From a virus (lineage: Duplodnaviria > Caudoviricetes): a DNA stretch of 34,456 nucleotides. Made by a program: the position numbers and the translations under genes. Shown one piece after another: positions 1 to 34,456 of the stretch (its first letter is position 1; every line of letters begins with the position of its first letter). The notes under the pieces are model-generated. The model saw only the letters and a list, made by a program, of their open reading frames with translations, was not told where the DNA came from and searched no databases. Location: positions 1 to 34,456 of the IMG/VR virus record IMGVR_UViG_3300002098_000020. The stretch is one strand, 5' to 3'.

Positions 1-70
1 TCAGCCACTGTGGTTGCGGCTTCAGCAGGCACACCTGACGCTTGTAGAGTGGCAGCGATTTCTTCTGTGG
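1..70. repeat. 70-bp terminal direct repeat (identical to 34387-34456); circular assembly overlap
   Basis: tcagccactg...tcttctgtgg occurs at both ends, and a reading frame runs unbroken across the join. Confidence 0.97.
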
Positions 71-1727
71 TGGCTCCGGTTTCTGCAAGGTGTGCGGCAG
101 CACCAGCCACATCTGCTGTGGTGGTTGCTGTGCCTGCTAATGCATCACCAATCATGGGTCCTACTACACTACCAAGCACTGCCACAGTAAACAGTTTGCC
201 AAAGTCACTGTTGATGAAATCACCAAAACTGGGACCAGCATTTTGAGCATTTTGTTCTGCGGCTCGAGCAGCCACTTGTTGATAGTTCGCTTGTTGATTG
301 GCCTTGCTGACATCAGTCAACTGTTGATTCACAGCGGCCTGATTTAATACTTTACCGGTGGACAAATCAATGTTTTGATTTATGTCACCTGTGTTTTTGA
401 TCCAATGTCCAGGTTCACCAGTGGCCTGGTTTGTAGGTGTGAGAGTATAGGTCACACCACCTGGCATGTATCTAGTGGCACCGGTTGGTAGTGTAGCAGG
501 ATCTGGTAATTTGCTTTCAAAGTCTGCTTGCGCGGCAGACGATGCGGTAGCATCTGCTTGCTGTTTTGCTATTAAAGGAGCATTGGCAGCCTCGGCTGCT
601 TGTTGTGATGTAGTGATTGCATCTGCTCTAGCCTGTGCTTGTGCGGCTGTTTGTGCGGCTTGCTCTGCATTGCGGGCATCAGCAGCCTGTTGTGATTCAG
701 CAACACCTTGTGCTGTGGCAGCAGTTTTTGCGGCTGCCTGTTCAGCAACTTGTTGTGGTGCTTGTATTTTCTTTATGGCTTGATCAATGTAGCCCTGGTC
801 CAAGGTAGCACCAGCGGCCTTGGCTTGTGCCTGGATGGCATCAATGTCTGCTTGGCTAGTGGCTTTTAACAAATCAGCATTGTATGATTGACCTGCTCGG
901 ACGCTGGCAGCCTGTGCTTGTTCAGCGGCTTGGGCATCGGCTGTGGCTTTTGCATCTGCGGCAGCCTTGTCAGCAATGGCCTTTTCAGCAGCCTGACGAT
1001 CAGCCGTGGCCTTTGCGGCGGCAGCCTGGGCTTGTGCTTGACGCTGGGCTTCAGCAACTTTGGCATCGGCAGCGGCCTTGGCTTGTGCGGCCGCGGCTTC
1101 TTGTGCGGCTTTAGCGTCGGCAGCGGCTTTGGCCGCAATGGCTTGTTCGGCGGCCTGACGATCGGCACTGGCTTTGTCAGCGGCTGCTTTTGCGGCAGCA
1201 GCCTTGGCATCTGCGGCTGCTTTGGCATCGGCAGCGGCCTTGGCCTGTGCGGCTTTGGCATCTGCGGCTGCTTTGGCATCGGCCACTGCTTTGGCGGCTG
1301 CGGCTTGTGCGGCTGCCTGTTGTTCCAGGTTTATTTGTGCTATGGATTTGGTACCAGTTGTGGGCGCCGCAGGAGTTGTGCTGGGTTTGATAGCCTGTGT
1401 GGTTTCAGCCTGGTTGACGGCGGCTGTGGTGGCTGCATCGGCTGCGGCCTTTGTGCTGTTGGCAATGCCAACTGCTGTGTTGAACTGTTGGGCATTGCTA
1501 AAGGCAACACCTGAACCTATTGTGGGTTTGCCTGCGTTGTTTAGTGTGACAGGCACATAATTGGTTGTGCCTGGTTTTTGTGCAACCCAATATGGTGCTT
1601 TTGAGCCTCCGGCTGGCACAAGATAGTATGTGGTGCCATCGTAACCTTTGACACTTGAAGTACCTGACTGTGCGGCTGTGGCCGCTTGGGGTAATGTGAA
1701 TGAATTTATTAATGCTTGTGTGGCCAT
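1..1727 (-). CDS. 5' part of origin-spanning 1259-aa putative ejection/internal virion protein (Ala/Lys/Gln TolA-like helical repeats)
   Basis: My translation from ATG 1727 (MATQALINSFTLPQ...AADAKAAADAKAAQAK...) stays open to base 1 and is in frame with ORF 32334..34418. It is missing from the ORF track because it crosses the origin. TAAATA lies 5 nt upstream. Confidence 0.85.
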   Translation of the reverse strand, partial: MATQALINSFTLPQAATAAQSGTSSVKGYDGTTYYLVPAGGSKAPYWVAQKPGTTNYVPVTLNNAGKPTIGSGVAFSNAQQFNTAVGIANSTKAAADAATTAAVNQAETTQAIKPSTTPAAPTTGTKSIAQINLEQQAAAQAAAAKAVADAKAAADAKAAQAKAAADAKAAADAKAAAAKAAADKASADRQAAEQAIAAKAAADAKAAQEAAAAQAKAAADAKVAEAQRQAQAQAAAAKATADRQAAEKAIADKAAADAKATADAQAAEQAQAASVRAGQSYNADLLKATSQADIDAIQAQAKAAGATLDQGYIDQAIKKIQAPQQVAEQAAAKTAATAQGVAESQQAADARNAEQAAQTAAQAQARADAITTSQQAAEAANAPLIAKQQADATASSAAQADFESKLPDPATLPTGATRYMPGGVTYTLTPTNQATGEPGHWIKNTGDINQNIDLSTGKVLNQAAVNQQLTDVSKANQQANYQQVAARAAEQNAQNAGPSFGDFINSDFGKLFTVAVLGSVVGPMIGDALAGTATTTADVAGAAAHLAETGATTEEIAATLQASGVPAEAATTVA

Positions 1728-1732
1728 AATGA

Positions 1733-1738
1733 TATTTA
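1733..1738 (-). promoter_or_regulatory. TAAATA late-type promoter, leaderless
   Basis: AATAAATA-TCATT-ATG(1727). Confidence 0.75.
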
Positions 1739-1768
1739 TTGGTTCCCGGTTTTTGGGGTGGATTACCC

Positions 1769-2716
1769 TTACTGTTTGACCACCTGTGCTGATAGACTTC
1801 TCAGGCCAAGAATCACATCATTAACCTGGATCTCAGTGCCATCCACTGGATAATCATAGATAACTTCTAGAATATACCAGTAATATCCTTTGTCTGGTTG
1901 GTCTACCACAGTTGAAAAAATGGTTTCTAGATCTATGGTGCCTGTGCCTGACAAAGCAGGATAGTTATAAATTTTTCTTGCCACTGTGGCTTGTCTTTCA
2001 AACAAATAATCTGGATTGGTTGGATTGTAATTGGGACCACCAACATATCTGTTGATGGCTACCCAAATTCTTAAATCACTAGGGCCTGAGGTCACATCAT
2101 AAGAAATGGTCTGATTCAATTGTCCTGATATAAAAACTCTATCGGTTGCACCTGTAATAGTTACCCGTGCATTACAATCTGTAGAAATATAGTCAGAATC
2201 ATCAAAATTTGCAGTGACTGAATAACTGACTTGACCACCACTTACATAAGGACCCAAGGGTGTCATGATAGATGCTACTGTGCGTACTATAACATATTCA
2301 GTGGTGCATTCAACCACACCAATCTGATTGATACTGGTACCTGCCGCTCGCAAAGCCGCTTTGTTATAACTGTCAGGAACAATGCCGGTAACATTGATAC
2401 CATTGCCAAGACTGAATGGTGGTGGATCATGTGGTGTTGCAAATGTGTATTTGATAGTTCTATCATCCAGTTGTTCCGCATTGCTGAGATCAAAAGCCGG
2501 CACATACAAATTGGCCAGGCCTGTTTGACTGTAGGGTATTCTAAAATTACCTGTAAGATATGTGGGTGTTTTCACAGGATCTTGACCCACATAATCGGGT
2601 CTATAGGCACTGAATCCAGCAAAGTTTTGGCCAAGTCCACCAGGACCTGACAGCAAGTAGTTCAAGGCATCTGCTACGCCTTCATCATCACCAATCTCTA
2701 CAGGATATTTTGACAT
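1769..2716 (-). CDS. Putative tail/virion protein (315 aa, beta-rich)
   Basis: Long ORF coupled by a TAATG overlap to the nozzle-like gene; position in tail module. Confidence 0.65.
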   Translation of the reverse strand: MSKYPVEIGDDEGVADALNYLLSGPGGLGQNFAGFSAYRPDYVGQDPVKTPTYLTGNFRIPYSQTGLANLYVPAFDLSNAEQLDDRTIKYTFATPHDPPPFSLGNGINVTGIVPDSYNKAALRAAGTSINQIGVVECTTEYVIVRTVASIMTPLGPYVSGGQVSYSVTANFDDSDYISTDCNARVTITGATDRVFISGQLNQTISYDVTSGPSDLRIWVAINRYVGGPNYNPTNPDYLFERQATVARKIYNYPALSGTGTIDLETIFSTVVDQPDKGYYWYILEVIYDYPVDGTEIQVNDVILGLRSLSAQVVKQ

Positions 2717-4668
2717 TAACGATCATCCTCAACTTGTGTGACTTGCCAGGTGGTGGCACTACACATCCAAATGTTGGTGTTTGATGTGTTTGATAATTCA
2801 ATTGTGTTCACACGGAAAGCATTCTGATCAATCTGTGCCCAGGGATTCTGCGCATTGGTTGCACCATTGGCATCCACAGGTATTGTGACAGGTGTTTTGC
2901 TTGTGGGCACTGAACCTACTGAATTGGCGCCTTCAATTGTGACAGTGATATTGCCTTTGAGAGCAGTTTGATCAGGCGAAATTGGTATGTCTGCTGTGTT
3001 CAAGTTTACAACTTCGGGCAAGATACGATGTACCATGAGTTTGCCTGAATAGTCCTTGATCAATTTGATATTGTCTCTGCGGAATGTTGACGCAATGGCA
3101 CCTGTGGGATTGGCATTGCTAGTGATAAAACTATAGCCTTGATCTTTTTGCAAGATCTTGCCATTGGTCACACCAGGTGCATAGGCCACAGTTCGTGATC
3201 CTTTGTTGGCAGACCAAGCAGGTATGGTGGATCCATCATGTGCATAAAAAATAGGTGCTTCACATGAGAATGTGGCACTGGATACATCTCTAGGTGCTTG
3301 CCACACATCTAGATCATAACGATAGGCCAACATTTTGTTGGGCACACCATTGTGAATGGGATTGGTTGCTGAGGCATATTCTGGTCGGGTTGTGTAGTAG
3401 ATTTCAATCTGATTTTTTTGAGTGTTACAATCCACAAACAATCTATCCACAAAAGCCGGATCCAGTTGATCAAACAACCAATTTTTCACACGCTGATTTC
3501 CCAATCCTGTAAAATCCTGACCATCAAACACCCAGACATCTCGTGCGTCAATACCATAAATGGTACGGTCAGTGTTGGCCCAGGCATTTGATGTCAACAT
3601 GCCACGACCCTGATTGAATAAACGCACACCCAAGATAGGTGCTGAAGTTGTGGTGTAGTTGATGGGCGAGAAAACCACTGTGTCCCAGTAACTGCTCAAG
3701 AAGAACTGTCCATTGAATGCAAATGCGTCCACGCAAACACCGCGCAAGGGCACTTCCAATTGGTTGGCAATGTTGGTCACTGTGGGTGCCCAGGTCTTGG
3801 GTGCTTGTTCTAGTCCAAAACTTTGTGACCATTGCACAGTTACAGGAAATGATTGAACTGTATCATCCAAGAGTGTGACTGTGAGATTACCGGCCACAAG
3901 GATTGAGCCCACATTGGGTGTGTTGTAGATTCGCATGAATCCAGCATAATAACTTTTCCAATTGGGATTGTAGTTCCATTGATAGAGTGGACTGACAGAT
4001 CCGCCTCCGGGATAGGCTCCTCCAGGCACAGCAAAATAGTCCACATAGGTGGTTGTACCACCAGCCACTGTGAATGTGCCATTGTAAAAATTATCAACTC
4101 CAGTGATTACTATTTGTTCACCCACAGCAAATGGTGTGTTCACCGCGGATGAAAATGTCAATCTTTGTGTTGTTGGTGATTGATATTGAATATTGGCAAT
4201 ACTAGCCGGAATTGTGTTTGAATACAAGATCATACGAGCACCATCTTCATTGGGCCAGAACATGGGTGGATTCAAACTGTCATTGAAGAATGGAATGGTA
4301 CCAGACCAGGATTCTGTGATGTTGGTGGCCTGTGTATAACCTGCAAATGGTCCTGATGCAGGTGTGATATCCTGCCAGTAGTCATCTGATCCATCCGATG
4401 CATACCAATAGCCTTCTGTGGTGGCCACAATAAAAAAGAATCTGTCATCCAGTCTATAGCCACCAGTCATGAATGTTGGTGTGCCGGGTATGCTGGAAAG
4501 TATGGCCTCATCTCCGGCCACACTACGAATGCCACGCACATCTGATTCTACATTGACACCTGCGTTGTATTCGTTTGGACCCAGTGCTGTTGATGGCACA
4601 TCGGGTGTGAATGACATTTTGGCAAATGGTATTCGCGCTTCTTGATAACTTGATTGTATTTGAGCCAT
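2716..4668 (-). CDS. Putative tail nozzle / DNA-stabilisation protein (P22 gp10-like position and size)
   Basis: 650-aa beta-rich ORF between fibre and ejection genes; motifs such as VQWS, VFDG and YRYDLDVW are typical of podovirus tail hub propellers. Confidence 0.65.
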   Translation of the reverse strand: MAQIQSSYQEARIPFAKMSFTPDVPSTALGPNEYNAGVNVESDVRGIRSVAGDEAILSSIPGTPTFMTGGYRLDDRFFFIVATTEGYWYASDGSDDYWQDITPASGPFAGYTQATNITESWSGTIPFFNDSLNPPMFWPNEDGARMILYSNTIPASIANIQYQSPTTQRLTFSSAVNTPFAVGEQIVITGVDNFYNGTFTVAGGTTTYVDYFAVPGGAYPGGGSVSPLYQWNYNPNWKSYYAGFMRIYNTPNVGSILVAGNLTVTLLDDTVQSFPVTVQWSQSFGLEQAPKTWAPTVTNIANQLEVPLRGVCVDAFAFNGQFFLSSYWDTVVFSPINYTTTSAPILGVRLFNQGRGMLTSNAWANTDRTIYGIDARDVWVFDGQDFTGLGNQRVKNWLFDQLDPAFVDRLFVDCNTQKNQIEIYYTTRPEYASATNPIHNGVPNKMLAYRYDLDVWQAPRDVSSATFSCEAPIFYAHDGSTIPAWSANKGSRTVAYAPGVTNGKILQKDQGYSFITSNANPTGAIASTFRRDNIKLIKDYSGKLMVHRILPEVVNLNTADIPISPDQTALKGNITVTIEGANSVGSVPTSKTPVTIPVDANGATNAQNPWAQIDQNAFRVNTIELSNTSNTNIWMCSATTWQVTQVEDDR

Positions 4669-4674: not shown

Positions 4675-5634
4675 TTAATTCCAAAGTTGTGCTGTTGAAC
4701 TTACACTAACCAATGAAGTGTTTACATTTCCTGGTGAGTAATAACCAGCCGTAACCCATCTTGGTTGACTTGATACTTGACCATATGCCAGGCCAAGCCA
4801 TTGTCCCGCCTGAGGCAAGGTAGAATAGGTCCAAGTTCCTGCTGGATTGGTTGCATATAATGCATTTTTTGTGCCGCCGAAGTCACCTCCAGTGATAACA
4901 AATTGATTGTTGGCATATTGTACCTTATACCAAAAATTAGTATTGTAAGCAGTGGTAGTGCTCCAAGTACCGCCACTATCAGTACTCCAGGTTATTGTGC
5001 CTTGAGTAATACCAAATATATCTTGAACTCCTACCCAATAACCAGCGCCATAAGCAATGTTCCTTATGGATGCGGTTTGTCCTGCGGCTTTCAAAGTCCA
5101 GGTAATAAGATCTGAACTTACATACACTGTGCCTATGAGTGTCCAGGCCATGTACAAACCAGCACCATATCCTACACAACTATAAAGCCCAGAGGCAAAA
5201 GTTTTTGAACTCCAGGTAATACCATCTGATGATGTAGCATAGGTAGTAGTGGCACTGCCACTAGTTGTGGTTCCAACAGCAACATACCCACTGGCTCCAT
5301 ATGCCACACTATAATAACCTAAACTAGGTAAACCTGTACAAGCGGTCCAGGTAATACCATCAGTGCTGTAGGCACCAACACCATTATCGCCTACAGTAAC
5401 AAATTTGTCACCATAAATCATTGATCGATAACCAGTACTGGGCAAAGTGCCAACGGTCCAGGTTTGTCCACCTGTGGTTGAATATGCTGATTTGTTATTT
5501 GTTCCGCCGACCATGGCAAAAGTATTTGTGCCGTTAAAAGCCACATTATTCCAATCATTATAAGCAGGCGCTGTTGGTGTATTCAATCTCTGCCACCATA
5601 AACTATCCTGTGCTGAGGTTGCGGCTGAGAACAT
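4675..5634 (-). CDS. Beta-propeller (BNR/Asp-box-like repeat) protein, probable fibre-associated receptor-binding subunit
   Basis: Repeats YSTTGGQTW, YSTDGITW, TSSDGITW, VSSDLITW, WSTDSGGTW alternate with VAYG..YVAVG; TAATG-coupled to the fibre gene. Confidence 0.75.
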   Translation of the reverse strand: MFSAATSAQDSLWWQRLNTPTAPAYNDWNNVAFNGTNTFAMVGGTNNKSAYSTTGGQTWTVGTLPSTGYRSMIYGDKFVTVGDNGVGAYSTDGITWTACTGLPSLGYYSVAYGASGYVAVGTTTSGSATTTYATSSDGITWSSKTFASGLYSCVGYGAGLYMAWTLIGTVYVSSDLITWTLKAAGQTASIRNIAYGAGYWVGVQDIFGITQGTITWSTDSGGTWSTTTAYNTNFWYKVQYANNQFVITGGDFGGTKNALYATNPAGTWTYSTLPQAGQWLGLAYGQVSSQPRWVTAGYYSPGNVNTSLVSVSSTAQLWN

Positions 5635-8600
5635 TATTGGAACGCCGGTGAAATTGTGGTCAAATACCCTGTGGCATTGGCACTGGTACGATATGCGGTG
5701 ATTGAAATCATTGTGGTTGTGTTGGCAGTTGAAGCCACTGTTGTCACATTACCAGCATACTTAATTGCGGCGTTGCCAGTTGGCATGGTCACAGTGTAAG
5801 GTGTTGAACCTTGTTCAATGATCAAGGTCACTGTGTCTGTTTGGTTGTCATTATTGGTGCCATCATTGGCAGTGGTCACAAAGTTGGTGTATGATCCAAT
5901 GGTGATATTGCCTGTAGCACTTACGCTTTGCACTTGTCCATTGTCTTTGTTAATATCCCAGGTGCCTGTGGTATTGCCGCCTGCCTGGAATGTGTGATAG
6001 GCTCGCAGACTTCCCAATTGGTTTTGTGCTACTGAGTCATCATTCTTCAGGAAGTAGTAGTTGGTGGCCGCACGGTTCAGATTGGTTGAATTCCAACCAT
6101 ATGGTGTAGCATTTGATGGCATGTAATAACCAATCACATTGCCAGCAGGTGTGCCTGTGGTGCCTTGAAATTGTGCGGTATAAGCAATCTGACTAGTTGT
6201 GAATGTGCTGGTTGCGGCTCCCAATTGCACTGTGACCAAAGCACCTGTTGCGTTGCCCGCTGTGCCTCCTGTGCCAGCAAGAAATGTTGAATTGAACGCT
6301 GCCGCATGACTCACACTTGCATTACCCATTGTGACATTGCCCTGATTACCAACCACAAGAGTTTGTGTGCCGCTGTTAAGCACAGCACCCAGGTTGGTGC
6401 CGCTGGCAGCAGTAAGCGTTAGGTTACCATTACCAATTTGAGTAAAAAATCCACCACCCGAAAATCGTTTGGCGGTGTTGGTAATATTGGCACCCTGATT
6501 TAGGTCTAGAAAATAACTTGAGGTAAACAATCTACTTGCATTGTTCAGGTCAGCATTGGCCACTACCTGTGTGCCAATCACCGCCAATTGACTACCTCTA
6601 TTGAAGTTAATGGGGTCGGCATTGGCACCATAATCACCACGATAACCATTGCCATAAACTATACGATTGGGATATACTGTGGCATTGACATTGCCGGCCA
6701 CTGTGCTGTTAACAATGGTGCCGTTGCCAGTGTAATAACTTAACACATTGGCGCCTATGGTGTTGCCTGTAATACTTAGGTTGGCACCGTTGATGTTGGC
6801 AGTGGCTGTGACTGTGGTTGTGGCCAATGTATTTGTGGTATTGTTAAATGTCAAATTAGCACTACCAGCAAATGCTCCGGCATTGTTGTATTGTATTTGT
6901 GTGTTGGAACCGGCAGCATTGGCAGTGGCAGTGATACCTGTCAACTGTGAACCATTGCCAATAAAGTAGTTGCCTGTGATATTGCCTGTTGCACTCACAA
7001 TGCCACCTGTTAGAATGTTGGCACCTGTTATGTTGCCAGAAGTAATTGTACCAGTGGTTGATATTGTGTTTGAACCAAACGCAGCCAGGAATGTGGCCAC
7101 ATTGGCGTCGCCATAACTGGAAGCAACTGCTTGATCGCTCTGAACAGTGGTAAAGTAGTTGACTGTGCCTGCAATGTTGGCAGCCACAACTGTTAAAATA
7201 CTTCTTGAATTGGCCACAGCAGGCACAGTTGATATGTTACCAGCATACTGATAAGTTGATCCTGTTGGCAAGGTCACTGTGTAAGGAGTTGCACCTTGTT
7301 GAACCAGAACGGTCAAAGTATCAATCTCTTGATCAGTGTTGACTGAGTCACTCAGACTGGTGACCATATTGTTATAACCAGTTATGGTTACATTGGCAGT
7401 GGGTGCTATGTATTGCACCTGTGCATTGTTCTTGTCTATGGCAATGCTGCCTGATGTGGCTGTGTCATAACGGAATTCGTTGTAACTACGCAAGGTGCCC
7501 AACTGTGTTTGTGCCACTGCGTCATCATTCTTTAGGAAGTAATAATTAGTCGCGGCTCGCATTGAGTTTGAGTTGGTTCCACCTATGGTTGCAGTTGCCC
7601 CTGGCATATAGTAGCCAATAGTGTTTGTAGGAGTTACGGCAGCAGTTCCTGTGAACTGAACTGATGTGCCCAGGGCATTGGTAATGTTACCAGCGTTGTT
7701 GATTTGTCCCAGCACAGCAGTAGCATTGGCTATGTTGGCACCTGCATAAGTGACCAATTGACCAAAACTAGCACTAGCACCTTGTAAGGTTATATTACCC
7801 AAGGCTATAGTAGCATTTGGTTGACCCACAGTCAGGGACTGATTGAAACCTACCACACCAAACATACCATTGTTGGTGTTGGTAAAACTATTGGCACTGG
7901 CACCGCCACCAATTGCAAGAGCACCCACACCACCTCTAAACAATGACACATTGTTTGTGATATTGCCCATGATAACTTGTGGCATCACAACTAGACCATT
8001 GTATCTAACACCGTTGCCTGTGGTTTCACTCACCGTGGCACTATCCCATACCAGGGCTTTGGCACCTCTAATACTGGCAATAGTAGAATTGACTGGGCTT
8101 AGGTTACCAAAATATCCATTGCCTATGACCATTTGGCCTGGTTGTAGTGTTGTAAGTGCTGAACTGGCTCCTGACCACGCATTTGATGTGTTGAGTCTTG
8201 TGGGACTTGTTGCGTCGGCTGTGCCTATGATCAAGTTACTGAGTGTGACATTACCACTAGTGTTGTCAAAGGTCATTGCGGCGTTGCCTGCAAAGGCATT
8301 GGCATTGTTGTATTGTATTTGTGTGTTTGATCCGGCCGCATTGGCTGTGATGCCTGTGAGTTGCGATCCGTTACCAATGAAGTAGTTGCCTGTGATATTG
8401 CCTGTTGCACTCACAATGCCACCTGTCAGTACATTGCCTGCAATCACATTGCCTGTCACACTTGATACACCATTGTTTGTGATATTGCCTGCTGTGATAT
8501 TACCGCTGACACTCACACTGGTCAATATACCAACTGAAGTTATGTTGGGTTGTGCATTTGTGGTCACAGTACCAGCAGTGGTAGCACTTCCTGCACTCAC

Positions 8601-24779: not shown

Positions 24780-24988
24780 GACGAGTCACAACTACCTATC
24801 GCAGACTGATCAACGGGCAATGGAAGCAGAGCATCACACTCACAACACCATTCCCTCGCCCCGTGATTGAGTTGCTCAATCAGTTTCACACAAGAGATTG
24901 TGCAAAGCCGGAGTTGGTGGCCGGTCAGGTACCATGTCGATCTCCCAGGCCGTGTCCCGACACCAGCGATTCCAACGACCCAGCATAG
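24776..24988 (+). CDS. Possible small protein (70 aa)
   Basis: ATGA-coupled to the previous ORF but overlaps the convergent gene by 113 nt. Confidence 0.3.
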   Translation: MRRVTTTYRRLINGQWKQSITLTTPFPRPVIELLNQFHTRDCAKPELVAGQVPCRSPRPCPDTSDSNDPA

Positions 24989-25280: not shown

Positions 25281-25476
25281 CAGCATCTCCTGGGGCGTGA
25301 TTGTCAAAACGGCGCAGGCGTTCTTGGTATTCCAGTATGCCTGAATCATAGTCAGCCTCAGGTTCATGTATCAGTTGCCAGAACGCCTGTAAGGATTCCG
25401 CAGTGTCAACAGGCAAATTGTAGATGCGATACCAAAATGCTCCGTTATCTTTTTCGGGTTGATATTGTGTTGTCAT
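25267..25476 (-). CDS. Early hypothetical protein (69 aa, MTTQYQP)
   Basis: AGGAG RBS and ATGA overlap. Confidence 0.65.
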   Translation of the reverse strand: MTTQYQPEKDNGAFWYRIYNLPVDTAESLQAFWQLIHEPEADYDSGILEYQERLRRFDNHAPGDADARI

Positions 25477-26790: not shown

Positions 26791-26819
26791 AGTATATATG
26801 ACAACGGCAAAAAAAGCAA
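26791..26819 (-). promoter_or_regulatory. Sigma70-type early promoter
   Basis: TTGCTT-17 nt-TATACT. Confidence 0.7.
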
Positions 26820-26847: not shown

Positions 26848-26853
26848 TAAATA
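26848..26853 (+). promoter_or_regulatory. TAAATA late-type promoter preceding structured RNA candidate
   Basis: GGTAAATA-CAT-TGTCAGTGGTG; no ATG or RBS follows. Confidence 0.6.
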
Positions 26854-27063: not shown

Positions 27064-27342
27064 ATGACTGTGAAATGGATTTCGGGACCAGATCCGCACT
27101 TGCACAAATTATATGTGGCATTTGGTTATCACCGAGTAAGCGCAAGACTGCGCGGAGAAACCTGGGATTTGCCGTGGGAAACCTGGCGTGATATCTGGCT
27201 ACCTAACTGGGAGTTCAGGGGCAGACTGGCCAATGACCTGTGTCTTGCTAGAATTGATATGGATGGGCCTTGGACACTGGACAATGTGCATCTAATCACA
27301 CGCAGAGAACACAGCCGACTTATCCGGGAGCATCACCGATGA
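27064..27342 (+). CDS. Small His-Me finger/HNH-like protein (92 aa; start revised to MTVKW)
   Basis: A.LRGETWDL.WE.W..IW...RGR...LCLARID..GPW..DNV pattern common in small phage HNH-like proteins. Confidence 0.6.
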   Translation: MTVKWISGPDPHLHKLYVAFGYHRVSARLRGETWDLPWETWRDIWLPNWEFRGRLANDLCLARIDMDGPWTLDNVHLITRREHSRLIREHHR

Positions 27343-27833
27343 TGTGGTACGCACCCACAGGAGCAGATGTTGCTGATATGGTCAGTCAAGCACAACACCT
27401 GTTTGAACTAGAAAATCCTGATGACGCAGGCGATATAATATTTCGCTTGGATCCCTTAGTGTACAGCCATCACATCACTCGAGCCATTGTGAATCAATTT
27501 TATCAGCCAGATCTAGACTTTGTGCGTGTGGCACGAGATGATGCCGGTCAATTGATAGCACAGACCTGGATTGGGCGTGGTGGTAGTCCGCTGTGGAGTC
27601 GAGATGAAATGGCCATCACACATATGGCACACACAGCCTACAGTCTGCCCCTACGCACACGAGTGCGCTTGATTGAACAAATGATGACAATGTGGGAAGA
27701 CTGGTGTCAGGAACACTCAATACCTATCATCAGTAGTAGTACTATGAGACAGCAAACAGATGGGTTTTTGAAGATGCACCAGCGTCGTGGTTACAGCCTT
27801 AGAGGTAATGTTGCGTACAAAAGAGTAAGTTAA
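27339..27833 (+). CDS. GNAT-fold acetyltransferase-like protein (164 aa; start 27339)
   Basis: ATGA overlap; DVADMV, FVRVARDDAGQLIA, RLIEQM..W.DW and GFLKMHQRRGY match the GNAT layout. Confidence 0.6.
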   Translation: MMWYAPTGADVADMVSQAQHLFELENPDDAGDIIFRLDPLVYSHHITRAIVNQFYQPDLDFVRVARDDAGQLIAQTWIGRGGSPLWSRDEMAITHMAHTAYSLPLRTRVRLIEQMMTMWEDWCQEHSIPIISSSTMRQQTDGFLKMHQRRGYSLRGNVAYKRVS

Positions 27834-27918: not shown

Positions 27919-28350
27919 TCACCCCAGAGTGGATCGTAGCATCCAAAGTGATTTTTCAAGATCTAGTGCTTGATCTTGTGCATAGTTGGCAATCTCATCT
28001 AGGCCTTCCTCATCTGCAATTGAAATCAATTCTTTGTACTCATCCAGGAGATGTTCTAGGTCTTCCTGTACCATAGTCAACAAATGATCAGCATCACCAG
28101 ATAACTCGCCGGTATCTATGTGGCTCGAGTCGATAACTTCGCTTATGTCGCAAGGTGCATACTCATCCATTGAGCGTAGCAATTCACCAATGCGATCAAT
28201 TTGATCTTGGCGGCGTGTGTAAATGCCTTCCAGTAACTTGTGATCACTACGGAAGTTGCGACCTGTGATGTTTATGTGTGCCATATGGCTACGGAAGTAG
28301 GTCACAAAGTTGTCACGAAATATCTGTGTTAGTTGTTCTGCTGTGTTCAT
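27919..28350 (-). CDS. dps: Dps-family ferritin-like protein
   Basis: HINITG..F..DHKLLE.IY...DRIGE and EK..WMLRS; H25/H37/D52/E56 match Dps ferroxidase ligand spacing. Confidence 0.88.
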   Translation of the reverse strand: MNTAEQLTQIFRDNFVTYFRSHMAHINITGRNFRSDHKLLEGIYTRRQDQIDRIGELLRSMDEYAPCDISEVIDSSHIDTGELSGDADHLLTMVQEDLEHLLDEYKELISIADEEGLDEIANYAQDQALDLEKSLWMLRSTLG

Positions 28351-28950
28351 TTATTGTCCAGTATAATTTGGCATCATTGCTCTGCGGCGTGCAAGTTCTT
28401 GTTGTTCATTGGTATTCAATCCACCTGAATAAGTCATTGCACCTAAACCAACGGCTGCTGGCGCGGCAAATGGCGCGGCAGCACGACCCATAGACGCTAC
28501 AGCAGGACCTGCGGCTCTAGCACCTGCCATTACTTTTTCAGCGGCAATCTTTTGCATTTGTTGTGCATAATTTATACCGCGTTGAACAACACTGGGCTGT
28601 TGTGTAGTACGAGCAAAATTTTCAGCATCTGTGGCTTTTAAAGCATTAAATGTTTGTTGTGCTGGAGTTATTGGTGGTGGTGGTGGAACTGCTACTGGTG
28701 GAGCAGCCATTGCGCCAGCACCGGGTCCTCGAAATGCATTTGCTAGTGCTTTACCACCTGCATATAAACCTGCACCTTCAAGACCATATTTTACTGCATC
28801 AGGAACCACGCTGGTCATTACACCTATTTTTTCATCCTGGCGATCGATAGGTTTTTCTTCTGGTATTGCTTGATCTTTGGTTGCAAGATACTGTTGAATT
28901 TCTTCATCAGTGTAACCATCTGCCTTTGCGGCTTCTACATCAAATGCCAT
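28351..28950 (-). CDS. Putative ejection/internal virion protein (199 aa)
   Basis: N-terminal FDVEAAKADGYTDEEIQQYL motif; Ala/Gly-rich hydrophobic helices. Confidence 0.6.
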   Translation of the reverse strand: MAFDVEAAKADGYTDEEIQQYLATKDQAIPEEKPIDRQDEKIGVMTSVVPDAVKYGLEGAGLYAGGKALANAFRGPGAGAMAAPPVAVPPPPPITPAQQTFNALKATDAENFARTTQQPSVVQRGINYAQQMQKIAAEKVMAGARAAGPAVASMGRAAAPFAAPAAVGLGAMTYSGGLNTNEQQELARRRAMMPNYTGQ

Positions 28951-28959
28951 AGTGTTTCC

Positions 28960-31545
28960 TTATCTGTCATAACTGGTTATGGGTTTGGTCTTAATCCAAC
29001 GCTCTTGGGTAGGATCATATTCAGGCACAGGAAATCTTACATAACCTTGTTTAACTGCTGCCGCTGTTGACCCATTTTTAGTAATATAGTCCAAACGATC
29101 TTTAGAAATTGTGGTATAAGTATCAACCAATTTCTTTTGTTCTTTGCGCCATTCTTTGTCCAACTGCAACGCATTAGATGCTGTGCTGTTTGGAGCCCAA
29201 TCACCTTTATAGCGTGCCAAATCAGCATTGAATTGACTTTGTGCCATTGAATTGTATGCACCCAGGGCTGGTACTTTGGTTGGATCCACATTGCGTTCTC
29301 TATTGGCTTGTTGTTCAGCATCACTAACTGAACCAGGACCAGCAGTGGATTTCAATGTTCTTGCATTGATTGTGGCATTCATATTGTTGTATTCAGCCAA
29401 GGCTGTTTGTTCATCGCGATTTAAACCAAGTGCGGCTGCTCGTTCACGCAATTTATCATCGGGTACACTTACTTTACCTAACACAACATCTCTAAACATT
29501 GTCCAACGCTGATCACTCGGTGATTGGCCTGAACCGTTAGCAATACCAAATATCTTGCTAGAATCTACACCTGGGCGATCAAACAGTTTGAATTGTTGTT
29601 TACGCAAACTAGAAATTTCATCACCGGCTTGTGCTTGTGGGCGAACTTCTTCATCAAGAATTTTGTTGAATGATTCACTGCGCTTGCCGGCAACTTGTAT
29701 ATTTTCCTTGGCGGCTGCTTCAGAAATAGCACCTTCGCGTTTGAGACGCTCTTTGTATTGAGCATAACTTTCATTTGCTCCTTGTGGTCCAGCACCGTTG
29801 GGAACTGGAATATTACCCAAGCGTTCCCAATGATTTGGATCTCGCTGTGGCACAGTTTGAACAAATCCTGCTTCACGCAATTTGCGTAAATCTTCAGCAG
29901 TTGCTCTGCTGGTTGGGAAGTCAATGGCATTGGCGTTTTCGTGAGCACTTGTGCCAGGTCGAGCAATAGGATTACCTTGTGCTGTCTTTCCAGGGCGACC
30001 TGCCGCAACGCTTTCATCCCATATGGCCTGTTGTTGTGCTGTTGGGCGTGTGCCACTAATAATAGGTTGACTTAATTGTAAACTATCAGCAATTGAGGCT
30101 GCTGACATTGGAGGCAATGGACCTTGTGGTCTATTGGTTTCTGCGGCTTGTGTACCTTGTTGACGAGCACCTGCGGCATTGTACACAGCAATAGGTGCTT
30201 GTGCCATTGTGGTCCAACCAGTAGTTGGCCTGCGTTCATTGCCTACTTGTACATAGGTAGAAGATGTTTGTGGATCATACATCATTTGACCCATTTCACC
30301 ATTGGCATTAGTTACAGGAGTACCGTGTGCGCTTGGTAACAAATGTGCTTTGGTTGGTAGTGCGGCAGCAGATATTCGGGCCAGGGTCTTTTGTCCAACT
30401 TCTTGACCATTAACATCAAATGCTTTGACCACACCACCTTGAGGATCGCGCACCACTGTGTATTTGTCTGTGCCCACTGTGGTAGTGTCCATTTTTAATT
30501 CTGGATTGATCATATCTTGTTCGCGTTTGGCTAGATCAGTAAGTCCCAATCTTGCAAACAATATGGCCTTGACATAACTGCCTTCTTTGGCACGCTCTTT
30601 CATATAGCGTGCCAATTCAGTAGGTGTTGCGGTTTCAATTTTCTTTTCAGCATCACGAAGATTCTTTTGATTTAAATAATCTTCGGCAATAAAACTGTGT
30701 GCCAAACGCTTGCTGGCTTCATCACCAGTTGCTAAAATATTAGCCATTGCTTGACGGCGTTTTTCTGGATCGGTTAAATTGTGTGCATCAATCACTGCTT
30801 GTCGAGCACGATCTTCAGAAGTTTCTGCAACTTGTCCCACTTGTGCCAGGCTTGCACCAGGTGCGCCAGCAGGTGCTTGTTGTATCACAGGCCCTGGTTG
30901 TGTAGCAGTGGCAGGATTTACTGGTCCAGCAACTTGAACTCCAGGTCCGGCTTGTGGCAATGCGGACATTTGTGGTGTGCCAGGCTCTGCTTCGCGTTCA
31001 ACTGTGGGCACCGCAGGTCCACTAGGTGCCATTTGAGCAGCCATTCCCTGTGCAGGTGCTTGTTGTACTTGTTGTTGTACTTGTTGCGGTTGTGGTTGTG
31101 GTGCAGGTGCCATTGCTGGCTGTGGTGCTATTGGGGTGGGTGCTACTGCTACAGGTGCTGGCGCAGGAGTTTGTGTTTTGACTATGTGTTCTTGCGATCC
31201 ATCAGCATAGGTCTTGACCTGTTGGCTTTGTACTTCTGTGTTGCCTGCGTCTGGTGTTGTAGATGGCACGCCCAGTCGTTGTTCTATAGCCTGTTGTGGA
31301 TTGGTCACAGCATTGGTCACATCGTTCACACGCTGGCCCATTTGATCCACTCTCTTGCCAAGATACTGACTGGCTAGATCACCAAGATTTACACCACGCG
31401 AGGCTCCAGGTTGTTGGCTGATACCATTTTCTTGGTCTTGAGCCTGTGCTTGTGCTTGTTCTTCAAGCAGGCGTCGTCTGCGTTGTTCTTCTGTTTCGTA
31501 ATCTCCGGGTATGTAACCGCCCATTGAATAATCATCGTAAGCCAT
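28960..31545 (-). CDS. Putative ejection protein (861 aa) with M15 (VanY-like) Zn peptidase domain
   Basis: ISGTR..QQ, ARPGTSAHENANAIDF (SxHx6D) and DPNHWE; GSVSDAEQ near C-terminus. Confidence 0.75.
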   Translation of the reverse strand: MAYDDYSMGGYIPGDYETEEQRRRRLLEEQAQAQAQDQENGISQQPGASRGVNLGDLASQYLGKRVDQMGQRVNDVTNAVTNPQQAIEQRLGVPSTTPDAGNTEVQSQQVKTYADGSQEHIVKTQTPAPAPVAVAPTPIAPQPAMAPAPQPQPQQVQQQVQQAPAQGMAAQMAPSGPAVPTVEREAEPGTPQMSALPQAGPGVQVAGPVNPATATQPGPVIQQAPAGAPGASLAQVGQVAETSEDRARQAVIDAHNLTDPEKRRQAMANILATGDEASKRLAHSFIAEDYLNQKNLRDAEKKIETATPTELARYMKERAKEGSYVKAILFARLGLTDLAKREQDMINPELKMDTTTVGTDKYTVVRDPQGGVVKAFDVNGQEVGQKTLARISAAALPTKAHLLPSAHGTPVTNANGEMGQMMYDPQTSSTYVQVGNERRPTTGWTTMAQAPIAVYNAAGARQQGTQAAETNRPQGPLPPMSAASIADSLQLSQPIISGTRPTAQQQAIWDESVAAGRPGKTAQGNPIARPGTSAHENANAIDFPTSRATAEDLRKLREAGFVQTVPQRDPNHWERLGNIPVPNGAGPQGANESYAQYKERLKREGAISEAAAKENIQVAGKRSESFNKILDEEVRPQAQAGDEISSLRKQQFKLFDRPGVDSSKIFGIANGSGQSPSDQRWTMFRDVVLGKVSVPDDKLRERAAALGLNRDEQTALAEYNNMNATINARTLKSTAGPGSVSDAEQQANRERNVDPTKVPALGAYNSMAQSQFNADLARYKGDWAPNSTASNALQLDKEWRKEQKKLVDTYTTISKDRLDYITKNGSTAAAVKQGYVRFPVPEYDPTQERWIKTKPITSYDR

Positions 31546-31555
31546 TGTTTATACC

Positions 31556-32272
31556 TTAAAATTTAAAACCAGCACTTGCCGTAGTTCCTGATGTGTTTGT
31601 GCCTGTTGGTCCTAGGCCATAACTTGCACTAGGAGCGCCATAAGGACCTGCCAAGTATTTGTTGAAATAATCTTGTGGAGTCATTGCGGCACCAACTCCT
31701 GTTTGTGCGGCACCCAGGGCTTGAGCCAATCCACCTGTGCCAATTTGTGCCAAGTTTGAAGCGGCAGACAATCGTTGTGCTTCAATGTCTTTGAGTATAC
31801 CAGCCGCAGTGGCTGCCTGTGTGGCCTGTGTTGTACCAGCCAGTTGTTGTCCTGCCAGGGCTTGTCTTGCTGAGCCCAAATTGCCTGTACCACCAAACTG
31901 TGCCTGTTGATTGGCCAAGTTCTGTTGATACTGTGCTTGTGCCGGTGCCATTGCGGCATTGAGTTGAGTTTGTGCATAATCTGGGCTGAAAAGACTTTCC
32001 AGGCCTGACACACCAGTACGCAAGGCTGATTCACCTGTTGATCCTGCTGTTTGCCCTACCTGACTGGCTGTGCCTGCTAGATTTTGTGCGGCATTTTGCA
32101 CACCACCTTGACTTGCGTTGTAAAGATTACTGGCTCCAGTGACTGCTTGTTTAATATTGGGCGCAATAGTGCTGGTAAACAGTTCATTTTGTGCTTGAAG
32201 TTGTTGTGTTTGTTCTGGCGACAATGTTGGTGTGCTAACACTGGTGGTGCCACCTTTTCCTGCGTACGGCAT
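31556..32272 (-). CDS. Putative DNA ejection/pilot protein (238 aa)
   Basis: GKGG N-terminus, Gln/Ala/Gly-rich, GNLGSARQALA motif; GAGGAG RBS. Confidence 0.65.
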   Translation of the reverse strand: MPYAGKGGTTSVSTPTLSPEQTQQLQAQNELFTSTIAPNIKQAVTGASNLYNASQGGVQNAAQNLAGTASQVGQTAGSTGESALRTGVSGLESLFSPDYAQTQLNAAMAPAQAQYQQNLANQQAQFGGTGNLGSARQALAGQQLAGTTQATQAATAAGILKDIEAQRLSAASNLAQIGTGGLAQALGAAQTGVGAAMTPQDYFNKYLAGPYGAPSASYGLGPTGTNTSGTTASAGFKF

Positions 32273-32294
32273 TATGCTTCTCCTCGTGATCTAA

Positions 32295-32300
32295 TATTTA
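32295..32300 (-). promoter_or_regulatory. TAAATA late-type promoter
   Basis: ACTAAATA-TTAGATCACGAGGAGAAGCATA-ATG. Confidence 0.65.
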
Positions 32301-32333
32301 GTGTATTCATTGTTTTGGGTCCTTTAAGCCAGG

Positions 32334-34456
32334 TTAAACCTTGGGCGCCGCTGGCTGATTGTATGGTGCTACCGCTGAGGCCTGACCAACACCTCTCAAG
32401 AGGTTTTCAATTGTTTGTGTTCTTGGATCATACATTTGTTGTAATCCATATGGTACCGCAGGTGCTGAAGGCACGGTGTTGTACAACGCAGGATCAAATG
32501 TGGTACCTGTTTGATATGGGTGTTGTCCATAATAGTATTGTGCTGCCACTGGACTTGGATTGTTGTAGTATTTTGGCACATTGGTAATGTATCCTGGATT
32601 CAATCCTGACATGTCTAATGGCACACCCTTGCCCCAATCTAGTGGTGTGATAGGACCATATGATTTTTTCACAGGAGTTGTGGAGGTGTCAATTGGTGGC
32701 ACATACACTGCTGGATATGGCGGTACAACAGTAGGTGGAGCAACTGTAGTTGGCGCAGTTGTGGTTGCAGTTGTTGTTGTGGGTGCAGTATTGGCCTGAA
32801 CTTCTGGTATGGGTTGACTTGGAGTCAAGTTTGCATTTTGTACCGGTGTCAATGGGGGCGGCACATACACAGGTGGTGGTGCAACTGGTTCAGGTCTTGG
32901 TGCTGTGATTGTGATTTCAGGAATGGTATCAACTGGTGTAGTATTTGTAGTTTGTGTAGAAGTTGTTGTGGCAGGTGCTACAGGTGCGTTTGTTTCAGCG
33001 ACTGTTGCGACAGGTGCAGCCGGTGCTACCGCACTAGGAGTTGCAGTGTTTGTGGCAGGTACCACTGCTACAGGAGCAGGTGTTGGAACAGGTGCAACTT
33101 CCCAGGCATTGGCAGCCTCATTAAATCTTGCCCGACCTGCGTCAATTTCGGTCTGTGTGGCCAACTGCGAACCCGGAGTCATCTGATTGGGCACAGCATA
33201 ATTGGGTGCTTCAGCAGTGCCAGCGGCTCCAGTAATGCTCACAGGCACAGCAGGACCTGTGTCTTGGCCCGATTCCACAATGTCTGTGGCTTCACCAGGT
33301 GTCCGGCCTTCAGCAACCAATTGTTTATATTGTGCTTCTTGAGCAGGTGTGTATGGACCTGCCACTTGTGTGCCTTCTGATGCTGTGGCGTAAGGATTAT
33401 TTTGACTCAGAGCCTGATTCAACTGTTCTTGAGTCATGTTGCCCACATCAACACCAGGTGCAACTGCGCCTGTGGCTTGAGTTTGACCTGCTGGTGCAAC
33501 AGGTGTTCCTGTTCGATCTTCCACAGGTGGTAATTGTCGGGTTTGTCCGGTTCTTGGGTCCACTGCCGCAACAGGAAATTTTGCACCTGATGTGTCTGTG
33601 GCAGCAACAGGTGTGCCTTGACTATTTGTGGTCATGCTTGAACCGTCTTCATATTCATATGTGGTGTTGCCCGCACTATCGCTTATGGCTTGTGCGCCAG
33701 CACCCACTGCACCACCTATCAAGGCAGCACCAGCAAGACTACCTGCTGTGATTGGTTGTCCGGTCACAGCATTGACCACAACAGTTGCGCCCACATTGGT
33801 TGCGGCACCTGCTAGACCCGCACCTAGCGCATCACTACCAAAATCTGGTAGCACTGATCCAATGCCGCCAGCAACACCACCACCCAAGGCACTGGTCAAT
33901 AGACTTTGTCCAGTAATTGGTTTACCAGTGATGGCATTGATTGCGGCTCCTGTGCCTGCACCTGTAAGTGCGCCATTTAGGATGGGATTGTTCACGCCAA
34001 GATTGGTCAACACATTGGTTATGGGATTTAAACTTGAACCTTCTAGTATTGAACTGGCTGTGCCACCCACTGTGCCTGCTGATGTTGGCGCTAGGCTTGA
34101 GATCATGTTGGGATCAATGTTCTTCATCAAATCAGCAGTTTCAGCGGCATTGAGTTCGGTCAATGCGGCTGTTTGTGTGGGAGCCACAGCACCTGTGGTT
34201 ATGGTACCGGCTTCAGGAGCAATAGCACCTGTTGTGGCAGCCGGAGTGGATGTGGCTATGGTTTCATTTACAGCGGCCAGGGGATTGGCTGAATTGGCAG
34301 CAGTGGTAACGGCTTCAGGTGTTATGCCATTTGCGGCACCCAAGGCTTGTGCATCTACAGTGCCATTGGTGATGCCAGTGGCTGTTTCAGCCACTGTGGT
34401 TGCGGCTTCAGCAGGCACACCTGACGCTTGTAGAGTGGCAGCGATTTCTTCTGTGG
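32334..34456 (-). CDS. 3' part of origin-spanning 1259-aa putative ejection protein (Gly-zipper hydrophobic segment, Pro/Thr-rich linker)
   Basis: In frame with 1..1727 through the 70-bp overlap. Confidence 0.85.
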   Translation of the reverse strand, partial: TEEIAATLQASGVPAEAATTVAETATGITNGTVDAQALGAANGITPEAVTTAANSANPLAAVNETIATSTPAATTGAIAPEAGTITTGAVAPTQTAALTELNAAETADLMKNIDPNMISSLAPTSAGTVGGTASSILEGSSLNPITNVLTNLGVNNPILNGALTGAGTGAAINAITGKPITGQSLLTSALGGGVAGGIGSVLPDFGSDALGAGLAGAATNVGATVVVNAVTGQPITAGSLAGAALIGGAVGAGAQAISDSAGNTTYEYEDGSSMTTNSQGTPVAATDTSGAKFPVAAVDPRTGQTRQLPPVEDRTGTPVAPAGQTQATGAVAPGVDVGNMTQEQLNQALSQNNPYATASEGTQVAGPYTPAQEAQYKQLVAEGRTPGEATDIVESGQDTGPAVPVSITGAAGTAEAPNYAVPNQMTPGSQLATQTEIDAGRARFNEAANAWEVAPVPTPAPVAVVPATNTATPSAVAPAAPVATVAETNAPVAPATTTSTQTTNTTPVDTIPEITITAPRPEPVAPPPVYVPPPLTPVQNANLTPSQPIPEVQANTAPTTTTATTTAPTTVAPPTVVPPYPAVYVPPIDTSTTPVKKSYGPITPLDWGKGVPLDMSGLNPGYITNVPKYYNNPSPVAAQYYYGQHPYQTGTTFDPALYNTVPSAPAVPYGLQQMYDPRTQTIENLLRGVGQASAVAPYNQPAAPKV
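34387..34456. repeat. Terminal direct repeat copy of 1-70
   Basis: Exact 70-bp match. Confidence 0.97.

What the first reader, a model, noticed from the sequence alone, without database searches (positions are those of the whole stretch)
1..34456. Virion-complete small phage apparently wired to a T4-like helper's late transcription system (candidate new satellite class)
Seen: a closed 34.4-kb genome with full head, tail and ejection modules. TAAATA precedes late units at 1733, 12506, 13780, 15494, 18202, 23701, 24289 and 32295 (minus) and at 24361 and 26848 (plus), with TAAGTA at 24069 and no common -35 element that I could see. I recognise no sigma factor, RNA polymerase, sliding clamp, DNA polymerase, primase, helicase, integrase, endolysin or holin. 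Known: T4 late promoters (TATAAATA, -10 only) need phage-encoded gp55, with gp33 and gp45 as activators, and are not read by sigma70. P4, PICIs and PLEs borrow structural parts from their helpers. Inference: this element does the reverse, building its own particle but borrowing late transcription, and possibly replication and lysis, from a co-infecting large T4-like phage.
Basis: partly seen in the sequence, partly recalled or inferred. Interest (0 to 1): 0.92.

Follow-up and report, generated by a model that had tools for sequence, protein, structure and literature searches.

The report
Phage parasitising jumbo-phage late transcription
This 34-kb freshwater phage encodes its own head and short tail but no recognisable sigma factor or lysis enzyme, and its particle genes sit behind the same short promoter-like box that giant phages of the same waters use, so it likely reproduces only in cells that such a giant phage also infects.

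Summary
All 11 listed boxes are present, and 10 of the window's 13 TAAATA sites precede genes, four exactly 5 nt before an ATG, as T4-type late promoters would place them. In close relatives the box precedes portal in 52/53 loci and the post-capsid gene in 58/58. In the sister clade with the same virion gene order the figures are 1/54 and 0/68. The sister carries an endolysin in 16/18 genomes, this clade in 0/24. No gp55-type sigma is found in 24 clade genomes. Freshwater jumbo phages (PA5oct/Atu_ph07/CBB-like) encode one, put TAAATA before virion genes, tolerate the same TAAGTA variant and share fibre DNA with the window. Dependence is inferred, not shown. Host, transcription starts and co-infection are untested, and a co-occurrence test was inconclusive. 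This scan noted the same idea earlier on other genomes. I found no paper describing it.

The parts
1..70 (.). Direct terminal repeat (copy at 34387-34456): circular 34,386-bp genome
1733..1738 (-). TAAATA box, 5 nt before the ATG of the 1259-aa ejection-slot gene (leaderless geometry)
1..1727 (-). 5' part of a 1259-aa likely ejection protein that continues at 34386-32334 across the junction
   Evidence: function inferred from position and composition
1769..2716 (-). Conserved 315-aa tail-region protein, no family
2716..4668 (-). Podovirus tail nozzle
   Evidence: phrog_3287; profile hit to PDB 8zkk/8zkm nozzle, E 1e-12
4675..5634 (-). Variable 319-aa protein after the fibre, likely receptor-binding
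   Evidence: function inferred
5634..10913 (-). 1759-aa repeat-rich tail fibre; segments shared with jumbo records (70.7% DNA identity over 307 nt, 65% protein identity over 156 aa, with G021)
10924..11910 (-). Virion structural protein, likely head-tail adaptor
   Evidence: phrog_2941; adaptor role inferred
11907..12500 (-). Conserved 197-aa gene after the capsid gene; TAAATA at 12506-12511, 5 nt before its ATG
   Evidence: box in 58 of 58 clade loci, 0 of 68 sister loci
12592..13764 (-). SU10-type major capsid protein; TAAATA at 13780-13785
13794..14300 (-). Homing endonuclease inserted between scaffold and capsid genes
   Evidence: phrog_314; TIGR01453 weak
14302..15444 (-). Likely scaffold; TAAATA at 15494-15499
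   Evidence: role inferred from position
15904..18177 (-). SU10-type portal; TAAATA at 18202-18207
   Evidence: box in 52 of 53 clade loci, 1 of 54 sister loci
18821..20428 (-). Terminase large subunit
20742..21584 (-). Conserved 280-aa protein, also in the sister clade; model is mixed alpha/beta with no sigma match
23701..23706 (-). TAAATA box heading the unit that runs from 23683 towards terminase
23704..24063 (-). 119-aa gene, possibly small terminase (label recalled, not confirmed); TAAGTA at 24069-24074, 5 nt before its ATG
   Evidence: TAAATA or TAAGTA 4-6 nt before the start in 17 of 18 rows
24088..24109 (-). Terminator-like hairpin separating the sigma70-driven 47-aa gene from the late units
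24140..24283 (-). 47-aa gene with both a TAAATA box (24289-24294) and a sigma70-type promoter
24319..24347 (-). Sigma70-type promoter TTGACC-N17-TATACT
   Evidence: 10 of 12 matches; similar sites in the early region of relatives
24372..24779 (+). 135-aa gene behind TAAATA at 24361-24366 (5 nt before ATG); ADP-ribosyltransferase-like fold is a lead only
24876..26751 (-). Variable early operon (245, about 185, 69 and 133 aa), no families; occupies the slot where some relatives have primase and helicase
26699..26719 (-). 21-nt element invariant in three diverged loci of the 245-aa gene, followed by short A/T-rich repeats; candidate origin or cis element
26791..26819 (-). Sigma70-type promoter TTGCTT-N17-TATACT before the early operon
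   Evidence: read by eye; below the threshold
26848..26853 (+). TAAATA box 210 nt before the 92-aa gene (27064-27342)
27339..27833 (+). 164-aa gene conserved in both clades; acetyltransferase-like by eye only
   Evidence: no family or structure match
27919..28350 (-). Dps/ferritin-like protein
28351..32272 (-). Three likely ejection proteins (199, 861 with VanY peptidase domain, 238 aa); TAAATA at 32295-32300
32334..34386 (-). 3' part of the 1259-aa likely ejection protein

Best explanation
This is a complete short-tailed phage genome whose virion genes sit behind TAAATA boxes and which encodes no recognisable sigma factor or lysin, so it is likely a self-packaging satellite that needs the gp55-type late sigma of a co-infecting PA5oct/CBB-like jumbo phage to switch on those genes and would leave the cell by the jumbo's lysis. 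Inferred order of events: (1) it enters with its own nozzle, fibres and ejection proteins; (2) host sigma70 transcribes the small early operon and the 47-aa gene, and a terminator keeps this out of the late units; (3) the DNA is copied or maintained by the swappable early module (own primase/helicase in some relatives, unknown proteins here) with a borrowed polymerase; (4) when the jumbo's sigma appears, RNA polymerase starts about 5 nt after each TAAATA, giving leaderless mRNA at some genes and Shine-Dalgarno-led mRNA at others; (5) its own terminase fills its own heads; (6) the jumbo's endolysin releases both. The clade likely arose from an autonomous podophage by losing the lysis and lambdoid-type early modules and adopting the helper's promoter. 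Shown: motif placement, gene content, the sister-clade contrast and the motif match to jumbos. Inferred: promoter activity, which sigma reads it, dependence, host, direction of evolution.
For: Motif placement: 41% of sites upstream of genes against 5-13% for shuffled-letter hexamers. All 19 relatives tested are enriched, p 0.0018 to 1e-15. Spacing to ATG in 20 genomes is 4 nt x11, 5 nt x34, 6 nt x8. T4's 8-bp box begins at -13 and has no -35 (PMC2988020 section 3), which leaves 5 nt to +1 (my arithmetic). Sister-clade control: box before portal 52/53 against 1/54, before the post-capsid gene 58/58 against 0/68; the two groups are split by a 100/100 branch of the capsid tree. Endolysin phrog_181 or phrog_7 in 0 of 24 clade genomes and 16 of 18 sister genomes. 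The sister also has Rz spanins, DnaB, initiator, annealase and resolvase. No own sigma: phrog_234 and phrog_12791 in 0 of 24 clade genomes; a profile of 82 late-sigma sequences that finds T4 gp55 at E 1e-30 gives best E 1.7 on 12,300 six-frame segments; Sigma70_r2 0 of 5. Candidate helpers: 6 of the 12 records over 40 kb picked from the fibre search encode gp55. In three examined, TAAATA is upstream in 58/159, 48/146 and 12/55 sites. In G021 the genes behind it include portal, tail tube, baseplate wedge, fibre and endolysin. Among 18 one-letter variants, TAAGTA leads the leaderless counts in both sets (8 and 6; others 0-3). DNA matches to these jumbos occur in 17 of 20 clade genomes and 1 of 7 sister genomes. 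Cultured jumbo CBB has a gp55-like gene, no gp33 or gp45, and ATAAATA before structural genes, all in silico (PMC5259590 passages). Jumbo-like contigs, including over the sigma gene, are in all four runs that hold the window.
Against: No transcript, start site, isolate or host. Dataset overlap with jumbo-sigma records does not separate the clade from its sister (13/74 against 7/72, p=0.23; union 15/115, p=0.64; lists capped at 80 loci). Jumbos of this type are common in freshwater (about 940 stretches), so presence in the same runs means little. The jumbo records were picked through fibre similarity to the window, which biases, and the shared DNA is repeat-rich at about 70% identity. The paper on PA5oct, one of the nearest cultured relatives of the sigma, reports TATAATA/TTGAC promoters and no TAAATA in its main text (PMC7318152 passages). 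In G021, 23 of 54 genes behind the box have no PHROG family and some are not structural (ligase, NifU-like, the sigma gene itself). Jumbo spacing has a second peak at 7 nt that the small phages lack. Most small ORFs of the window were not folded. No integrase and no shown way to meet a helper.
Confidence: 0.7

Rival explanations
1. Autonomous phage with its own unrecognised late sigma or activator and an unrecognised lysis system (for example a single small lysis protein).
For: Many ORFs have no family. A sigma70-type promoter could give early expression. Only two unknown proteins were folded.
Against: The box is clade-wide while no early gene is. The conserved unknown genes lie behind the boxes, and several are shared with the box-less sister. 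The 245-aa model is beta-rich and the 280-aa model mixed, with no sigma match. A sensitive gp55 profile finds nothing. An own factor would not need to match the jumbo box down to the TAAGTA variant.
Confidence: 0.12
2. A host sigma reads TAAATA, for example an alphaproteobacterial-type sigma70 that tolerates a non-T at -7, or an alternative sigma, so no helper is needed for transcription.
For: TAAATA resembles a -10 box with A at the last place; alphaproteobacterial sigma70 promoters often lack -7T (recalled, not tested). The host is unknown.
Against: No -35 conservation. The last A is strict: TAAATT, TAAATC and TAAATG are not enriched (2% each). Spacing peaks at 5 nt rather than the 6 expected from a -12/-7 box. 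The same genomes use canonical TTGAC-N17-TATA(A/C)T for early genes. It does not explain the loss of endolysin.
Confidence: 0.08
3. Helper dependence is right, but the helper is a classical T4-family myovirus with gp55, gp33 and gp45.
For: One record from the fibre search (G029) has a classical gp55. Aeh1 has (a/g)C in place of TA before the core (PMC2988020 section 9), and C is the commonest base before the box here (52%).
Against: No TATAAATA in the window. Five of six gp55-bearing records found are of the long jumbo type, and these match in core, variant and GC content.
Confidence: 0.07
4. The box is a translation or RNA-processing signal, or an A/T-rich by-product of intergenic DNA, not a promoter.
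For: Intergenic DNA is A/T-rich and other A/T hexamers are mildly enriched there (5-13%).
Against: TAAATA is 3-8 times above same-letter words, has a fixed 4-6 nt spacing class beside a Shine-Dalgarno class, heads units rather than every gene, and is missing from the sister.
Confidence: 0.03

Closest known systems
MiniFlayer, MulchRoom and Ando satellite viruses of Streptomyces phages (PMC10690885 passages; PMC13587820 abstract)
   Same: Own capsid, portal and terminase; virulent helper; MiniFlayer has short tail fibres and no known primase; Ando lacks lysis genes.
   Different: This element has a full podovirus nozzle, fibre and ejection set in 34 kb. The proposed dependence is on the helper's late sigma; the MiniFlayer paper has no occurrence of 'promoter' or 'sigma' in its main text. 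Physical attachment to a helper is not shown here.
Virophages Sputnik and Mavirus (PMC6723459 passages)
   Same: Own particle; helper's late promoter upstream of the satellite's genes (12 Sputnik genes, all Mavirus genes); giant helper.
   Different: Bacterial tailed phage, no homology implied, no virus factory; sigma70-type early promoters; no integrase; effect on the helper unknown.
T4-family late transcription, gp55/gp33/gp45 (PMC2988020 sections 3 part 1 and 9) and jumbo CBB (PMC5259590 passages)
   Same: -10-only box with the TAAATA core, 5-nt spacing, placed before virion genes.
   Different: Only the 6-bp core is kept; the genome that carries the boxes encodes no sigma; candidate helpers show no gp33 or gp45.
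P4, PICIs, cf-PICIs and PLEs (PMC10690885 introduction; P4 activation by the helper's Ogr is recalled)
   Same: Compact swappable replication module (primase plus VapE-like helicase in some relatives); response to a helper regulator.
   Different: They integrate and borrow capsids or tails; this one has no integrase and borrows no virion part.
Autonomous sister clade, such as Podoviridae sp. ctfne034, MW202484.1
   Same: Same virion gene order; capsid about 62% and terminase 53% identical.
   Different: 40-45 kb, with endolysin, spanins and lambdoid-type replication and recombination genes, and no TAAATA before virion genes.

Membership tests
Satellite virus (helper-dependent, own capsid) | Encodes its own capsid and packaging proteins | tested here: met
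Satellite virus (helper-dependent, own capsid) | Cannot propagate without a helper | not testable with these tools
   no isolate; indirect support
Satellite virus (helper-dependent, own capsid) | Depends on the helper for genome replication | tested here: inconclusive
   no replication family in the window, but unknown early genes; 6 of 19 relatives have a primase
Virophage-like strategy | Helper's late promoter motif upstream of the satellite's genes | tested here: met
   motif, variant and position shared with three gp55-encoding jumbo records; in silico only
Virophage-like strategy | Expression by the helper's transcription factor; reduced helper yield | not testable with these tools
   no RNA holder listed; no culture
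T4-type late promoter | -10-only box with no -35 conservation, about 5 nt before the start | tested here: met
   start inferred from leaderless ATG spacing
T4-type late promoter | Full octamer TATAAATA | tested here: not met
   0 sites; only the core, as in the Aeh1 and CBB variants
T4-family phage | Encodes gp55, gp33, gp45 | tested here: not met
   gp55; gp45; gp33 search uninformative
P4/PICI/PLE phage satellites | Integrase and chromosomal integration | tested here: not met
   PF00589 0 of 24 clade genomes; only a 3.2-kb binned contig among species genomes; serine integrases not searched in relatives
P4/PICI/PLE phage satellites | Lacks capsid or tail genes | tested here: not met
   capsid, portal, nozzle, fibre present
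MiniFlayer group | Homology to the MiniFlayer/MulchRoom structural module | tested here: inconclusive
   not among the 15 capsid hits in the phage collection; no direct comparison made
MiniFlayer group | Virion attaches to the helper's neck | not testable with these tools
   needs microscopy

The most novel reading that the evidence does not exclude
A widespread freshwater class of bacterial virophages: complete podophages that gave up lysis and late regulation, rewired every virion operon to a jumbo phage's late sigma, and replicate only as parasites of jumbo infections, with their autonomous sister lineage still alive beside them.
Probability: 0.55. Interest if true: 0.92.

Novelty: new variant of a known kind. 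Interest (0 to 1): 0.8.

Why it matters
If true, an abundant group now counted as ordinary small lytic phages (539 capsid-bearing stretches in the viral collection, some possibly of the sister clade; 1,169 Dps clusters, not all necessarily of this clade) would be parasites of jumbo phages, the bacterial counterpart of virophages. A 2026 review lists undiscovered elements that parasitise jumbo phages as an open question (PMC13282480 passage), and another calls it unclear whether satellites grow more common with helper size (PMC13359090 passage). The surviving autonomous sister clade makes the step from phage to satellite traceable. The claim can be tested cheaply with a promoter reporter and a cultured jumbo. 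It also offers a sequence rule (late box, no sigma, no lysin) for finding such satellites in metagenomes.

Tried and rejected
Genome-wide count of TAAATA: not above chance; only position is informative. RNA evidence: no RNA holder listed. Host: capsid search of species genomes gave two binned contigs only, 3.2 kb in an Actinomycetota bin and 22 kb (sister clade) in a Dechloromonas bin, which I do not take as host evidence; a DNA search of 401 genomes of the latter's order gave no perfect spacer-like match (best short hits 82-89%, not inspected). Co-occurrence by dataset: inconclusive. Function of the 245-aa early protein: 24 homologues without names, no usable Atlas hit, model pLDDT 69, Foldseek none, best Z 5.2 among tied beta-barrels. 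The 185-aa early protein: 11 hits, none informative; two long repeat proteins among them look spurious; not related to the 245-aa family by profile. The 280-aa protein: only an uncharacterised phage homologue, best PDB Z 4.5, weak Rho-N-like helical part Z 4.1. Acetyltransferase label for 27339-27833: not confirmed. ADP-ribosyltransferase label for 24372-24779: rank-30 Atlas hit only, no structure match. The 21-nt element as a helper-shared origin: rejected; absent from 3 jumbo records, 19 relatives and 7 sister genomes at up to 4 mismatches, and the 119 collection matches to its 16-nt core lack its context. Searches for a close jumbo partner through the 319-aa and endonuclease genes: nothing close. 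Fibre against cultured phages: no match. Rfam: none. gp33 and gp45 in jumbo records: none, but incomplete records and a silent control. A PHROG 'endolysin' hit in G034 (E 5e-7) lies in the ejection-protein slot, where other relatives have SLT domains, and was not counted as a lysin. No complex prediction was run.

Full report
What is there. The window is a closed phage genome: a 70-nt terminal repeat makes a 34,386-bp circle, rated 100% complete. The four best holders among public runs are labelled freshwater metagenome. Their contigs cover 15000-34456 and span the early region without a listed insertion. It encodes an SU10-type portal and capsid protein, a terminase, a podovirus nozzle, a 1759-aa fibre, and four likely ejection proteins, one with a VanY peptidase domain and one of 1259 aa across the junction. 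No sigma factor, polymerase, primase, helicase, integrase or lysin was found in 39 ORFs by PHROG and Pfam or in 24 by NCBIfam.

The motif. All 11 listed sites exist. Ten of 13 TAAATA sites precede genes, at 5, 5, 5, 5, 15, 17, 22, 24, 49 and 210 nt from the start codon, and the TAAGTA site is 5 nt from one. The total count is near chance, but the position is not: in the window and 9 relatives 74 of 182 sites lie 6-60 nt before a gene, against 5-13% for the 14 other words of the same letters, with no -35 signal. Ten more relatives are all enriched. Over 20 genomes the short spacing class is 4 nt x11, 5 nt x34, 6 nt x8. T4's late promoter is an 8-bp box starting at -13 with no -35 (PMC2988020, section 3 part 1 read), which leaves 5 nt to +1. 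The short class therefore fits leaderless transcripts from a T4-type promoter; this is inference, as no RNA run was listed. The full octamer is absent, as in the Aeh1 and CBB variants.

Two sigma70-type promoters lie on the minus strand, each back to back with a plus-strand TAAATA: TTGACC-N17-TATACT before a 47-aa gene that ends in a terminator, and TTGCTT-N17-TATACT before the early operon (by eye). Many relatives have such promoters in their early region. That region is not conserved. I scanned 150 of 186 non-core ORFs of 9 relatives with Pfam and 90 of 143 from 10 others with PHROG, plus 25 picked ORFs. Six of the 19 relatives carry a primase, most with a helicase. None showed a DNA polymerase (one E 0.005 partial hit), a sigma or a free-standing lysin.

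A natural control. The nearest record in the phage collection, MW202484.1, has the same virion gene order, a 62% identical capsid protein, its own chitinase-type lysin and lambdoid early genes, and 0 of 17 TAAATA sites upstream of genes. It belongs to a sister clade of 40-45-kb genomes. After dropping loci with duplicate or short capsid sequences (64 clade and 68 sister kept of 80 each), the box lies before portal in 52/53 against 1/54, before the post-capsid gene in 58/58 against 0/68, and before the scaffold in 32/58 against 2/63. A 50-row subsample tree splits the groups at 100/100 and is unrooted. In six whole sister genomes no core virion gene has the box; one genome is weakly enriched (p=0.015), at non-virion genes. 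Endolysins of two families occur in 16 of 18 sister and 0 of 24 clade genomes. Three sister genomes scanned (65 of 139 ORFs) show endolysin, initiator and other lambdoid-type genes, two also Rz spanins and two DnaB. Gain of the box thus goes with loss of lysis.

No own reader of the box. Two gp55 families are absent from 24 clade genomes. A profile of 82 late-sigma sequences, which finds T4 gp55 at E 1e-30, finds nothing under E 1.7 in 12,300 six-frame segments of 21 genomes. The largest early protein folds as a beta-rich domain and the conserved 280-aa protein as a mixed domain, neither like a sigma. The other small proteins were not folded, so an unrecognised activator is not excluded.

Candidate helpers. 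A search with the fibre's C-terminal part returned large contigs. Six of the 12 records over 40 kb that I checked encode gp55, five of a long type closest to Phosso, Atu_ph07, PA5oct and the CBB-like jumbos. In the three I examined, TAAATA is enriched upstream (58/159, 48/146, 12/55). In G021 it precedes portal, tail tube, baseplate, fibre and endolysin genes, along with non-structural and unknown ones (a matching scan of box-less genes was not run). TAAGTA is the favoured variant in both jumbos and small phages. The window shares fibre DNA with G021, and 17 of 20 clade genomes against 1 of 7 sister genomes have DNA matches to the jumbos, though the jumbos were chosen through this similarity. 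gp33 and gp45 were not detected, as reported for CBB. T4 gp55 alone gives basal accurate initiation on core polymerase, so a sigma acting in trans is plausible. Jumbo-like contigs are in all four runs, but such phages are common and dataset overlap is not discriminating. The PA5oct paper does not report TAAATA in its main text. Its Table S3 and CBB's Table S7 were not read and may bear on this.

Mechanism and odds. Best reading (0.70): a self-packaging satellite whose early genes run on host sigma70, whose virion units fire only with a jumbo late sigma, and which exits by jumbo lysis. With a classical T4-family helper instead (0.07), total odds of helper dependence are about 0.77. Rivals: own hidden activator 0.12, host sigma 0.08, not a promoter 0.03. 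How a phage without integrase meets its helper is open: it may wait as an episome or ride on the helper's virion as MiniFlayer does. The host is likely Gram-negative, inferred only from the sister's spanins and the hosts of cultured jumbos.

Novelty. Capsid-encoding satellite viruses of phages are known (PMC10690885 passages; PMC13587820 abstract), and virophages carry their helper's late promoter (PMC6723459 passages). PMC3121705 (passages) gave only background on ViI-like late promoters. Six searches of the open library (listings only) returned no paper on a virion-complete phage wired to another phage's late sigma; subscription journals are mostly not covered. I class it as a new variant of the satellite-virus strategy, not as a member of P4, PICI or PLE. 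Eight earlier notes of this scan reached a like reading on other genomes. They are unchecked and not independent support, and none matched this genome by sequence.

Noticed in passing
window 26699-26719 (-): A 21-nt stretch is invariant at DNA level in three diverged loci of the 245-aa early gene and is followed by short A/T-rich repeats inside the gene's disordered start; it may be an origin or other cis element.
   Followed up: partly
window 24372-24779 (+): A 135-aa gene behind a leaderless TAAATA box has an ADP-ribosyltransferase-like Atlas lead; if real it could act on the helper or host late in infection.
   Followed up: partly
window 26859-27066 (+): The 210-nt leader after the 26848 box folds with z -2.3 (4 of 200 shuffles as good); its first hairpin sequence recurs in G002. 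Possible small RNA.
   Followed up: partly
window 12506-12527: Back-to-back TAAATA boxes on opposite strands (12511 minus, 12522 plus); the plus one points antisense into the capsid gene's end and recurs in G002.
   Followed up: no
window 13794-14300 (-): Homing endonuclease between scaffold and capsid genes; sporadic in relatives.
   Followed up: partly
window 27919-28350 (-): A Dps/ferritin-like gene sits at the end of the ejection unit in nearly all clade genomes examined; the sister has a different Dps-like family elsewhere.
   Followed up: no
L089:9522-10055 and L396:5792-6046: Relatives carry a superoxide dismutase 46% identical to one in jumbo G021 and a GroES: possible gene pick-ups from helper or host.
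   Followed up: no
L274:8222-9124 (G021): The jumbo's late sigma gene itself has TAAATA upstream of its called start, which would be positive feedback.
   Followed up: no
window 21652-23683 (-): A run of small basic, low-complexity genes between the possible small terminase and the 280-aa gene; several are conserved across the clade and mostly lack hits in the sister.
   Followed up: no
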